Positions 869-57,545 of a stretch of DNA of 64,000 bases are shown here, piece by piece; positions within the stretch are counted from its first letter, which is position 1, and each line of letters opens with the position of its first letter. The notes beneath the pieces were generated by a model. The model saw only the letters and a program-made list of their open reading frames with translations, was not told where the DNA came from and did no database searches. Made by a program: the position numbers and the translations under genes. Location of the stretch: assembly GCF_006345805.1 (NCBI RefSeq), contig NC_043002.1, positions 74,214,001 to 74,278,000 on the forward strand, written 5' to 3'. Source of the stretch: Octopus sinensis. Lineage: Eukaryota.

Positions 869-988
869 CTCTAAAGTAAGATCAAATTGTGGTTTAATGC
901 AGCGTAAATGCTGTACAATAGGAAATATTGACAAAACTGATGTGTATTCATGACGAGCAATGTTCTTTTTAGCATTTGCAGCTATAGC
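869..988 (-). CDS. EXOC7: EXOC7 coding exon 12 (gene continues beyond the window start)
   Basis: tccaag|GCT...TTA GAG|gtgag; AIAANAKKNIARHEYTSVLSIFPIVQHLRCIKPQFDLTLE; 120 nt, phase 0 to 0. Confidence 0.93.
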
Positions 989-2239
989 CTTGGAAAAAGA
1001 AAAAAAACAATTAATAATATCTTGGTTTCAAATTTTGGCACAAGGCCAGTAATTTGGGGGAGTGGGCAGGTTGATTAAGTCATCCCTAGTGCTCAACTGG
1101 TACTTATTCTATCAACCCCAAAAGGATGAAAGGCATAGGAGACTTTGGCAGAATTTGAACTCAGAGTGTAAAGACAGACGAAATGCTGTTAAGGATTTTC
1201 CCTAGTGTGCTAATGATTCTGCCAGCTCACTGCCTTTAAAATAAAAATAACAACATATAATAACATATTAGAATGAAATAACAGTTCGAAAGCAGCAGAG
1301 ATTTAAATGAACAGTTAATGTGATTTTTACTTAATTTCAGATATTCTAAACATCATATTATTTTTGGTATCAAGAAATATTATGAAGGATCAGTTGGCAG
1401 AAGAGATCCTTATTCAACATTGAAAGGAGAAAAATAAATTAAAAGAAAGATTATTTTGATCTTTTACTATATTCAGCCACTGGGCAATGGCCATGTTGGG
1501 ACACTACATTTAGAGTTCTGAGACCAATGTAATTTCAGTATGGTCCTTATTTTATCGATCTCTATTTAGCAGCTAAGTTACCTTTTGGCATAAAGGGACA
1601 TGATTGAATACACTGGTTTACACTATTAGAAACAGGCACACAAACACACACATAAATATATATACATCTTTTATCTTTTACCTGTTTCAGTCATGGATTG
1701 TGACTAAGCTGGAGTATCACCTAGAAAGGTTTTAGTTGAACAAATCAATCTTAATACTTATAGTATCAGTCTCTCCTGTTAGACCATTTAGTTACAAGGA
1801 CTTAAACAAACCTACACCACCATTTGTCAAACTATAGGAGAGGGGGACAAATATAACACAAAGATACAGACATGTAAGCATGCATACACACACACACAAT
1901 GATGGCCGTCCACACAATTTCTGTCTACAAAATTCACTTATATGGCACTGGTTGTCCAAAGTGACACACAATGGGATTGAACCCAAAACCATGTGGTTGC
2001 AAAGCAAGATTTTTAACCACACAACCATGCCTGTGTTTATATATATATATGACAGCCTTTCACACAATTTTTATCTATCAATTTCTACTCACATAGTAAC
2101 ATGATATACGTAACTTTATCTAAGATATCATATCATTAAAACAAAATTACTATCCTCGATGCTCATTCACTTAGATGCATCCTGGAACTAGACACATGCA
2201 AAAAAAAAAATACTAAGCTTATTTTTGGCAAATATCTAC

Positions 2240-2344
2240 CTCTCCTTCACTAACCACCATCTCTAGTGCTCGTAGAATGACTTTATCAAACTCCATACGT
2301 TGATATTTTTCTGGAATAATACCATTCATTAGTTGTGCTTCACT
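2240..2344 (-). CDS. EXOC7: EXOC7 coding exon 11
   Basis: tttcag|AGT GAA...GGA GAG|gtag; SEAQLMNGIIPEKYQRMEFDKVILRALEMVVSEGE; 105 nt, phase 0 to 0. Confidence 0.93.
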
Positions 2345-55459: not shown

Positions 55460-56735
55460 CACTCAAATGTAACAGTGTATTTATTATTTCAGTCAAATAT
55501 AAAATGGACGGAGGTTTTTTTAAAGGCTCAATAGAAAATCTCACAAGGAATATATATAACAAAGCACATAAGACTTTGGTATCTATTTCTTAAGATTTCC
55601 ATTGTAATCAATCTAACAACCAAGATTAAAAGATTAAGGCATTGCCACAGAGTAGAAGACTAATATAAAGACACAATTAAAGAGACACACACACACAACA
55701 TGCATACACTTATATACAAACAACATTCACACATGCATACATAAAACAAACACTTAAGATATATGATTTAGACAATAGATTAAATATGTCCTTGTAGAAT
55801 GCAACTTGGACTGTGTGGCTCTGTCCATCAATACCATATGGAAGCTATGAGTAACTGCAGTCAACAAATATTAGAACCGGAAGTTGAAGAATGTATTCAA
55901 TGTTTTTAATTTTTGTAAATTTTTTTTCCAAATTTTTATTATTTTTTTTTTCAATAGATTTTCAAAACATGAAAACTGAAAACCTACCACATGGCTAAAT
56001 TATCTTCTTAGAAATCTGATGCTTTGTTGTAATGAGCTGAAGGAAGATGTAGTTGACAACAATTGGGTAGAAAGTTCATTGTGTTAGAATTTAAAGGTAA
56101 TAATGGAGAATACACTTTATTGAAGTTCATATCTATGACAGCAAATGGAAAAACAAACTCCGCCCATTGTTAAGATATCAGTCGATCCTCTACAGCAACT
56201 TCAGGAGACCAAAATCATTAATGGTTCATTAAGTCCTAGTTACCAAGTGATTGTTCACATAAGAAAAAGAAAAAAATGGGTGGGAGGGACTAAATTAAAA
56301 TAAAATATAGCATCTTAAAATTTTTCAACATTGACCAGTGGTACAATATTTTTATCTCATTTTATATATTTTGTTATTTTTGTGTTGCTCTGTTTTATCT
56401 CTTTTTTTCTTTTCTTTTTTTTGTTGTAAAATAAAACAAAACAAAACAAACAAACAAACTACCAAACCAAGCCAAAATGCTGCTTTTTAGGTTACTGCAG
56501 GATGTATGAATCTGAGAGGAGATTGGAAAGGCAAACAAAAAGTAGTAATATATCACCAAGAAATTATTAAGATTAGAAAGATATGTTTAGAAGGTGTTTA
56601 ATGTTAGTAGAAGTATCGTAGAATTAGAAACCAAATAACTTTTTGGTGTTTAAATTTTACTGATCTTTTTGTGAACCATTTTCCAAGATGATGTTGTTAT
56701 ATGTCACACTCAGTTACCATTCTTTTTTGTCTGGT
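55460..56735 (-). other. Probable ~1.3-kb FoxJ1 3' UTR
   Basis: AT-rich stretch without recognisable transposons downstream of the stop; minus-strand AATAAA at 55480-55485; the end point is inferred. Confidence 0.4.
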
Positions 56736-57545
56736 TTACATTATTGTATCAATATCAAAAGTTGCTGTCATATCGTCAGAATGGGTTCGAGATTCTGCCC
56801 AAGGGTGGGGATTCTCAGGTAAAGGTGAACTTGATTCAGGTGTGTTCAGTCCATCAGCACTGTCACATATAGTGAATATAGTGCTGTTAAGAAAGTCTCG
56901 AGTCTCAGCACTAAGATTGAAGCTGTTGCTACACATGTCATTCCCAGCCCACCAATGTTTGATACCAGTACCTTTTACAGTTAAATCGAGGGGGTTATTA
57001 GTTAGAGAACCATCCAGTGAATGCCCCCGACCATTCATGGAAGAATTTACAGGCTTGTTTAATATATTGCTACAGAAAAAATTGTCCATGCTGATATCGT
57101 CAGCGTTGGATCCATCAGAATCTGGAGGACTAAGCGCCATCAAAGAACCATAATCTACTTCGTCAATAATTGCTTCTGTTTTCACTTTCACATCGCCAAC
57201 CGTGATGTCTTGGTCAAACAGGAAGTTCAGGTTAAAGTCATTACTCACTTCATCAGTGGGAGGCAGGTGAATGACATTTGACAGCATTTCTGCAGCTTTG
57301 TTGCCTTCCCAATCAGGTCCTGATTGGGAATTCAAACTGTCTGATTGACAGCTAATGTCTGACCGACTTCGCTTCAAGGGTGTGTAGTTAAGATCATTGT
57401 GCTTTCTTTTCTTCAATATACCATTTTCTATCTGGTCAATATATTCAGGATTCACCTTCCAGAAACCTCCTTTACCAGGTTCATCTTTTCTCCGAGGAAC
57501 TTTTTGGAAACATTTATTCAAAGACAAATTGTGACGTATAGAATT
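56736..57545 (-). CDS. FOXJ1: Forkhead box protein J1, last coding exon (C-terminal half of the forkhead domain plus tail)
   Basis: tttacag|[41 protein letters not shown] is the FoxJ1-type signature; phase-0 acceptor inside the forkhead domain; 810 nt to TAA; upstream exon not found in 57546-64000. Confidence 0.9.

What the first reader, a model, noticed from the sequence alone, without database searches (positions are those of the whole stretch)
869..57545. FOXJ1 upstream of and co-oriented with EXOC7, as in human: possible ancient microsynteny or regulatory block
Seen: FoxJ1 (-) lies about 31 kb upstream of EXOC7 (-), with WBP11 the only gene I found between them. Established knowledge, from memory: human EXOC7 and FOXJ1 are adjacent and co-oriented on 17q25.1, while human WBP11 is on chromosome 12. 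FoxJ1 is the master regulator of motile ciliogenesis, the exocyst traffics membrane to cilia, and WBP11 has been linked to centriole duplication through splicing. Inference: if this is a cephalopod, a lineage known for heavy genome rearrangement, survival of the pair suggests a constrained unit, such as FoxJ1 enhancers embedded in bystander housekeeping genes or co-regulation of cilia-related genes.
Basis: partly seen in the sequence, partly recalled or inferred. Interest (0 to 1): 0.72.

Follow-up and report, generated by a model that had tools for sequence, protein, structure and literature searches.

The report
Ancient FoxJ1–WBP11–EXOC7 block, already catalogued
This octopus keeps the cilia regulator FoxJ1 next to two back-to-back genes, WBP11 and EXOC7, an old neighbourhood also found in clams, limpets, acorn worms and, minus WBP11, humans; it is already listed in published catalogues and is likely held together by shared regulatory DNA.

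Summary
EXOC7 (-, ATG 25,382) and WBP11 (+, ATG 25,833) sit head-to-head, with spliced transcript contigs reaching within 261 bp of each other. The FoxJ1 last coding exon (-, 57,545-56,736) follows; its first coding exon lies 46 kb beyond, outside the window. Homologues and a tree place the gene in FoxJ1. The linkage is ancient: record numbers put FoxJ1 and EXOC7 within 7 records in 9 of 26 species, including bivalves, a limpet and a hemichordate. It is not new: FOXJ1=EXOC7 is ancient GRB pair 65 in Touceda-Suarez 2020 (taken from Irimia 2012), and FOXJ1-WBP11-EXOC7 is block 1931 in Robert 2022, squid included. Added here: the ancestral block was likely FoxJ1 between two head-to-head pairs; in this octopus the second pair (MGRN1/RNF157-UBALD, ATGs 774 bp apart) sits on another contig, and no host gene was found in 160 kb upstream of FoxJ1. 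Each neighbour is missing from FoxJ1's side in some lineage. Enhancers inside bystanders are the likeliest cause (about 0.55) but untested; co-regulation of cilia genes is not supported.

The parts
869..25382 (-). EXOC7 (Exo70), first 12 coding exons; gene continues about 32 kb left of the window
   Evidence: tblastn of P0339 and P0149; exon 1-2 joint 23,187/25,325 in 4 of 4 runs
25383..25832 (.). 450-bp interval between the EXOC7 and WBP11 start codons; likely bidirectional promoter; TCACGTG E-box at 25,744
   Evidence: Contigs of EXOC7 reach 25,480 and of WBP11 start at 25,742; CpG o/e 0.63 against 0.28 in both gene bodies; E-box 1 seen, 0.01 expected, motif recalled
25833..45620 (+). WBP11, 14 coding exons
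   Evidence: tblastn of P0442, ORFs, Pfam PF09429, GT..AG joints in 4 of 4 runs and 2 of 4 runs
55479..56735 (-). FoxJ1 3' UTR with an 80-nt skipped stretch at 56,393-56,472 (likely intron)
   Evidence: Contig pieces in runs X1 and X6
56736..57545 (-). FoxJ1 last coding exon (C-terminal half of the forkhead domain, residues 174-442)
   Evidence: Pfam PF00250; 99% to named Octopus FoxJ1; tree
57546..64000 (-). Start of the 46-kb FoxJ1 intron that splits the forkhead domain; first coding exon lies outside the window at G000:C6:74,318,325-74,317,807

Best explanation
This is the 3' half of an ancient bilaterian gene block in which FoxJ1 lies tail-to-tail with a head-to-head pair, WBP11 and EXOC7, that likely shares one promoter, and FoxJ1 likely stays beside that pair because some of its enhancers lie in or around it. 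Shown: gene identities, order, orientation, spliced transcript contigs of EXOC7 and WBP11 reaching within 261 bp of each other, recurrence of the block in other phyla, and the octopus MGRN1/RNF157-UBALD pair lying head-to-head on another contig. Inferred: a shared promoter makes the EXOC7-WBP11 interval hard to break; FoxJ1 elements downstream of the gene make the FoxJ1-WBP11/EXOC7 interval hard to break (a genomic regulatory block); the ancestral block was EXOC7, WBP11, FoxJ1, UBALD, RNF157/MGRN1, from which vertebrates lost WBP11 at this place and molluscs lost the UBALD-MGRN1 pair. Confidence is about 0.97 for ancient microsynteny and 0.55 for the enhancer constraint.
For: Order FoxJ1-WBP11-EXOC7 by consecutive records: O. 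vulgaris CAI9724208/209/210-212, Patella caerulea SNE40_005671/2/3, Potamilus CHS0354_033298/300/301; FoxJ1/EXOC7 Solemya ScPMuIL_005041/043, Argopecten XP_069123685/683, Ptychodera XP_070580280/281-2. Published block 1931 holds all three in Ptychodera, Saccoglossus, B. lanceolatum, Lottia, C. gigas, Mizuhopecten and Euprymna (PMC8851819). Published GRB pairs FOXJ1=EXOC7, FOXJ1=RNF157, FOXJ1=UBALD2 (PMC7530604). FOXJ1-EXOC7 adjacency persists in human and sheep without WBP11 between, so the link outlived the promoter pair. A developmental regulator beside housekeeping-type genes: CpG o/e 0.28 in EXOC7 and WBP11, 0.72-0.85 upstream of FoxJ1.
Against: No enhancer, conserved non-coding element or contact was shown. 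Each neighbour is away from FoxJ1 in some lineage: EXOC7 in Lineus (other chromosome-size contig), EXOC7 and WBP11 together in Lingula (45-kb scaffold) and WBP11 in Capitella, UBALD and MGRN1 in this octopus, so no one bystander is required; the Lingula and Capitella breaks rest on fragmented assemblies. A human FOXJ1 promoter construct drives expression in ciliated ependymal cells of mice (PMC2475541). Octopus FoxJ1 has a 46-kb intron and a gene-poor upstream region that could hold its enhancers. RFX half-sites are at background in EXOC7 (18 seen, 18.6 expected) and WBP11 (6, 5.7); the one full X-box in WBP11 intron 1 lies in a dispersed repeat.
Confidence: 0.55

Rival explanations
1. Slow decay without a FoxJ1-specific constraint: the two head-to-head housekeeping pairs are the constrained units, intergenic gaps in compact ancestral genomes were small targets for breakage, and FoxJ1 has simply stayed beside one pair or the other.
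For: Both pairs are head-to-head with under 800 bp between start codons in this genome. EXOC7-WBP11 stay together in Lingula, Saccostrea cucullata and Littorina and UBALD-RNF157 in Lingula and Capitella whichever side FoxJ1 went. Breaks fall on both sides of FoxJ1.
Against: The block survives in squid and octopus with 31 kb between FoxJ1 and EXOC7. Irimia 2012 reports a false discovery rate under 0.0002 for pairs kept in four or more lineages, though that tests shuffling, not slow decay.
Confidence: 0.35
2. Co-regulation of cilia-related genes: the three genes stay together because they are switched on together in ciliated cells.
For: Exocyst and cilia are linked in print (search listing only, PMC4828438 and PMC10039714). 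Robert 2022 reports higher co-expression in gene-dense blocks. All three transcripts are present in runs X1 and X6, but those runs were chosen for holding FoxJ1.
Against: FoxJ1 is tail-to-tail with WBP11 and its promoter is at least 79 kb from the shared one. No RFX X-box or half-site in the EXOC7-WBP11 interval. CpG-depleted gene bodies fit broad expression (reading of CpG depletion as gene-body methylation is established knowledge, recalled).
Confidence: 0.07
3. Coincidence: octopus and human arrived at the adjacency independently.
For: 5 of 26 species have the two genes on different contigs.
Against: Same three-gene order in cephalopods, bivalves, limpet and hemichordate; 4 of those 5 exceptions are scaffold-level assemblies.
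Confidence: 0.02

Closest known systems
GRB pair 65, 213.0 [FOXJ1=EXOC7], Touceda-Suarez et al. 2020 Table S1 (PMC7530604), source Irimia et al. 2012
   Same: The same gene pair, listed as an ancient trans-dev/bystander pair, linked in human and 3 of 8 non-vertebrate species, multi-bystander with RNF157 and UBALD2.
   Different: No octopus datum in the rows seen. WBP11 appears there as [FOXC1=WBP11], which is probably a mis-assigned FOXJ1=WBP11 (my inference). No functional test of this pair in the parts I read.
Microsyntenic block 1931, 'Bilateria novel', Robert et al. 2022 supplementary file 4 (PMC8851819)
   Same: FOXJ1, WBP11 and EXOC7 together in 7 of the 11 species listed for the block, including the squid Euprymna scolopes.
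   Different: The table gives no orientation; head-to-head layout, transcript ends and the octopus location of UBALD-MGRN1 are added here. The stored file is cut, so further species may be listed.
Co-regulated head-to-head ancient pairs (Hspe1-Hspd1 type, Irimia 2012, PMC3514665)
   Same: EXOC7-WBP11 and MGRN1-UBALD are 5'-5' with under 1 kb between them, the stated signature of a bidirectional promoter.
   Different: EXOC7-WBP11 is broken in human; co-expression was not measured here.
Tested GRBs such as Isl and Otx blocks (Irimia 2012 abstract and passages)
   Same: Developmental transcription factor beside unrelated genes, kept across phyla.
   Different: Those have enhancer and 3C evidence; this block has none that I found.

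Membership tests
FoxJ1 class | Forkhead domain groups with FoxJ1, apart from FoxJ2/3, K, N | tested here: met
   Clade of 21 rows, support 93/94 (just under the tool's star threshold of 95/80), holding this gene and 20 database proteins of which 18 are J1-named or J1-like by search rank; the octopus FoxJ2/3-like and K-like genes fall outside; outgroup labels are recalled
FoxJ1 class | Best database relatives are FoxJ1 over the whole N-terminal exon | tested here: met
   Of the 120 rows listed (207 hits) all but one with a class name are J1; one spider row is named J3-like but sits in the J1 clade
Ancient conserved microsynteny | Orthologues within 4-5 intervening genes in several distant lineages | tested here: met
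   9 of 26 species within 7 record numbers; published gene ranks and IDs
Genomic regulatory block | A developmental transcription factor plus unrelated bystander genes | tested here: met
   FoxJ1 with exocyst subunit and splicing factor
Genomic regulatory block | Enhancers of the target gene inside bystander introns (reporter, ATAC, 3C) | not testable with these tools
   No chromatin or contact data; RFX motif scan at background
Genomic regulatory block | Conserved non-coding elements across the block | not testable with these tools
   No other animal genome can be fetched; the run search finds near-identical DNA only
Genomic regulatory block | Target and bystander expression uncorrelated | tested here: inconclusive
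   Contigs cannot rank expression; CpG pattern is only indirect
Bidirectional promoter pair (EXOC7-WBP11) | 5'-5' orientation with under 1 kb between starts | tested here: met
   450 bp between ATGs; contig ends 25,480 and 25,742
Bidirectional promoter pair (EXOC7-WBP11) | One promoter drives both genes (two-way reporter, CAGE) | not testable with these tools
   Contigs cannot show starts

The most novel reading that the evidence does not exclude
The ancestral bilaterian FoxJ1 sat between two bidirectional-promoter pairs (EXOC7-WBP11 and UBALD-RNF157/MGRN1), and lineages have cut the block in complementary places: vertebrates removed WBP11, a nemertean EXOC7, molluscs the upstream pair. This natural deletion series points to the WBP11 interval as the seat of a motile-cilia enhancer over 550 million years old, and the 32.6-kb gap between human EXOC7 and FOXJ1 would be the eroded WBP11 locus still carrying FOXJ1 enhancers.
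Probability: 0.25. Interest if true: 0.55.

Novelty: already known. Interest (0 to 1): 0.22.

Why it matters
The linkage itself is already in print, so the octopus copy is one more species. If the enhancer reading is right, the interval downstream of FOXJ1 becomes a candidate for non-coding variants in primary ciliary dyskinesia (FOXJ1 is listed as a dominant cause in PMC11605363) and a handle on how the motile-cilia programme was wired in the first bilaterians. A small practical gain: a probable Fox mislabel in a published GRB table.

Tried and rejected
Main-text searches: foxj1+exoc7+synteny gave 0 papers; foxj1/exo70/microsynteny, 2 of 3 terms, 15 papers, none on this pair by title and abstract; foxj1+exoc7 6 papers, gene lists only; foxj1+wbp11 5 papers, none on linkage by listing; foxj1/synteny/rnf157 and FoxJ1 promoter/enhancer gave no study of enhancers in the neighbours. 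So the pair seems absent from main texts held but is present in supplements. Irimia 2012 supplements could not be read; Schmidbaur 2022 supplements (7 files) hold none of the gene names, but may use gene IDs only. PDB search cannot class the gene: no FoxJ entry among 33 hits. No RNA holder is on record as RNA; the runs laid are guessed RNA, though their GT..AG joints fit spliced transcripts. Runs X21 and X23 cover neither WBP11 nor FoxJ1 at 98% likeness and say nothing on expression. The splice from the window exon to the distant FoxJ1 exon was not seen directly: contigs run 384 and 733 letters past 57,545 off the stretch, but the letters were not listed. RefSeq record numbers are not strictly positional (one Octopus species has FoxJ1 XP_036359918 next to WBP11 XP_036359917 but other records of the same genes 298-714 apart), so distant numbers on one chromosome were counted as uninformative. 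'Capsaspora owczarzaki' rows of block 1931 carry Capitella IDs (CapteP222987 = CAPTEDRAFT_222987) and were not read as unicellular conservation. The similar gap sizes, 31 kb and 32.6 kb, are treated as coincidence. Earlier scan findings: none. Cnidarians, ecdysozoans and sponges were not tested by me.

Full report
What is there. The window is G000:C6:74,214,001-74,278,000 of a 2.7-Gb genome whose proteins are 98-100% identical to Octopus records. EXOC7 runs on the - strand from ATG 25,382, with 12 exons in the window and 10 more down to about 32 kb left of it. WBP11 runs on the + strand from ATG 25,833 to 45,620 in 14 exons. The two are head-to-head with 450 bp between start codons. In 4 of 4 runs laid (4 studies, RNA by the tool's guess) both are spliced at canonical joints; EXOC7 contigs reach 25,418-25,480 and WBP11 contigs begin at 25,742-25,822. 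The forkhead exon at 57,545-56,736 holds only the second half of the domain; the first coding exon lies 46 kb further on, outside the window. FoxJ1 contigs end near 55,480, about 9 kb short of the last WBP11 cover.

Identity of the Fox gene. The upstream exon retrieved 207 proteins; of the 120 listed, all rows with a class name are FoxJ1 except one spider row named J3-like. In a 33-row forkhead tree the gene joins that FoxJ1 set at 93/94 support, apart from 12 other octopus Fox sequences, among them a FoxJ2/3-like one (outgroup labels recalled; the tool warns of long branches among them).

Is the linkage old? No other animal genome can be fetched here, so I used record numbers and contig lengths as proxies for position. 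Both genes were seen for 27 species; Pelusios had no positional data and was dropped. Of the other 26: 9 have FoxJ1 and EXOC7 within 7 record numbers (O. bimaculoides, O. vulgaris, Argonauta, Argopecten, Solemya, Potamilus, Dreissena, Patella caerulea, Ptychodera); 3 share a scaffold of 2.4 Mb or less (Ylistrum, Mizuhopecten, Haliotis rubra); 8 share only a chromosome (O. sinensis, Pecten, Mya, Gigantopelta, Littorina, Diadema setosum, two Lytechinus); 5 are on different contigs (Nucella, Candidula, Lymnaea, Lingula, Lineus, only the last chromosome-scale); 1 is ambiguous (D. antillarum). WBP11 falls between the two in O. vulgaris, P. caerulea and Potamilus. Human EXOC7 and FOXJ1 are consecutive, 32.6 kb apart; the sheep list reads RNF157, FOXJ1, EXOC7, ZACN.

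It is already catalogued. Touceda-Suarez 2020 Table S1 lists FOXJ1=EXOC7 as ancient GRB pair 65, source code GRS, which the legend defines as Irimia 2012, and adds FOXJ1=RNF157 and FOXJ1=UBALD2. Robert 2022 lists block 1931, 'Bilateria novel', 54 rows for 11 species; 7 hold FOXJ1, WBP11 and EXOC7 together, among them the squid Euprymna, and Ptychodera gives the order EXOC7, WBP11, FOXJ1, three sulfotransferases, UBALD2, RNF157. Survival in a cephalopod is therefore in print too. That file was cut when stored, and the Irimia supplements were not readable; both may hold more.

What this genome adds. The best UBA_8 hit (UBALD) and the best zf-C3HC4_3 hit lie 29 kb apart on contig C17; the RING matches MGRN1 at E 4e-26, and the two start codons are 774 bp apart, head-to-head. 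So the block reads as FoxJ1 between two head-to-head pairs, and the octopus has kept the downstream pair and lost the upstream one; the other molluscs in block 1931 list no UBALD or RNF157 either, so this break may predate cephalopods (inference). Upstream of FoxJ1, CpG o/e steps from about 0.2-0.4 to 0.6-1.0 near window position 100,000 and stays there for the 100 kb profiled. A Pfam scan of 278 composition-filtered ORFs from the 200 kb right of the window (the filter passed 415 of 4,257 ORFs over 270 kb; a few were added or left out by hand) gave three mariner hits, one Pif1 helicase and one weak adenylate-cyclase hit, and no clear host gene. Short exons would be missed, so gene-poor is likely, not proven.

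How it most likely works. Two constraints are likely layered. The EXOC7-WBP11 interval behaves like a bidirectional housekeeping promoter: short, divergent, CpG o/e 0.63 against 0.28 in both gene bodies, one E-box. That explains the pair but not FoxJ1. FoxJ1's link to EXOC7 outlived WBP11 in mammals and its link to WBP11 appears to have outlived EXOC7 in Lineus, which is what enhancers downstream of FoxJ1 would produce (0.55). Against this, every neighbour is missing from FoxJ1's side somewhere, a human FOXJ1 promoter construct already drives ependymal expression in mice, FoxJ1 has ample intron and upstream room, and RFX motifs are at background. Slow decay of a compact ancestral arrangement remains a real rival (0.35). 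Co-regulation as cilia genes has little behind it (0.07).

Papers seen. Passages: PMC11605363, PMC6884434, PMC4081011, PMC2975663, PMC2475541. Abstract and passages: PMC3514665. First fifth of the main text, passages, supplement legend and table rows: PMC7530604. Passages and table rows: PMC8851819. Supplement search only: PMC9023564. Others: search listings only. Human strand orientation, WBP11 on chromosome 12, the motif consensus strings and the meaning of CpG depletion are recalled.

Verdict. A real, ancient microsyntenic block, correctly spotted, already known including in a cephalopod; mechanism labelled GRB in print but untested. Interest 0.22.

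Noticed in passing
G000:C10:5,895,875-5,895,979 (L024): A partial second copy of the FoxJ1 first coding exon (about 33 residues, 4 changes), probably a duplicated fragment.
   Followed up: no
G000:C10385, C9254, C11040, C12601, C8460 and C2:118.3 Mb (L026, L028-L034): Further, divergent Exo70_C matches away from the EXOC7 gene, several repeated on small contigs; possible Exo70-like copies or pseudogenes.
   Followed up: no
G000:C17:25,177,376 (-) and 25,178,150 (+) (L113): MGRN1/RNF157 and UBALD head-to-head, 774 bp apart, on a local CpG peak: the other half of the ancestral FoxJ1 block.
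   Followed up: yes
window 57,546 to about G000:C6:74,310,000: Most of the 46-kb FoxJ1 intron is CpG-depleted (0.2-0.45) like the housekeeping neighbours, while the 5' end and upstream region are not; may reflect germ-line transcription of FoxJ1.
   Followed up: partly
window 56,393-56,472: An 80-nt stretch skipped in FoxJ1 3' UTR contigs of two runs, likely a 3' UTR intron.
   Followed up: no
window 20,306-22,531; 7,164-8,030; 33,224-33,970; 51,190-52,039; 47,245-47,568; 62,056-62,403: LINE reverse-transcriptase remnants in EXOC7 and WBP11 introns and in the WBP11-FoxJ1 gap, and mariner remnants.
   Followed up: no
window 189-865; 15,604, 23,914, 27,401, 41,571: A 169-bp unit in 4 near-identical tandem copies ending 4 bp from an EXOC7 exon, and a dispersed element with 63-66-bp tandem units that is very abundant in the RNA runs.
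   Followed up: no
L035:1-453 (G000:C6:74,014,001-74,014,453, -): A protein-kinase exon (MAPK-like by recalled motifs) about 167 kb beyond the EXOC7 3' end.
   Followed up: partly
Protein records P0013, P0137-P0140 (Mya arenaria): Several FoxJ1 copies on one chromosome in Mya, suggesting a local expansion.
   Followed up: no
PMC7530604 Table S1 row 142; PMC8851819 file 4 rows 6007-6009: Two probable label errors in published tables: [FOXC1=WBP11] for FOXJ1=WBP11, and Capitella genes under the name Capsaspora.
   Followed up: partly
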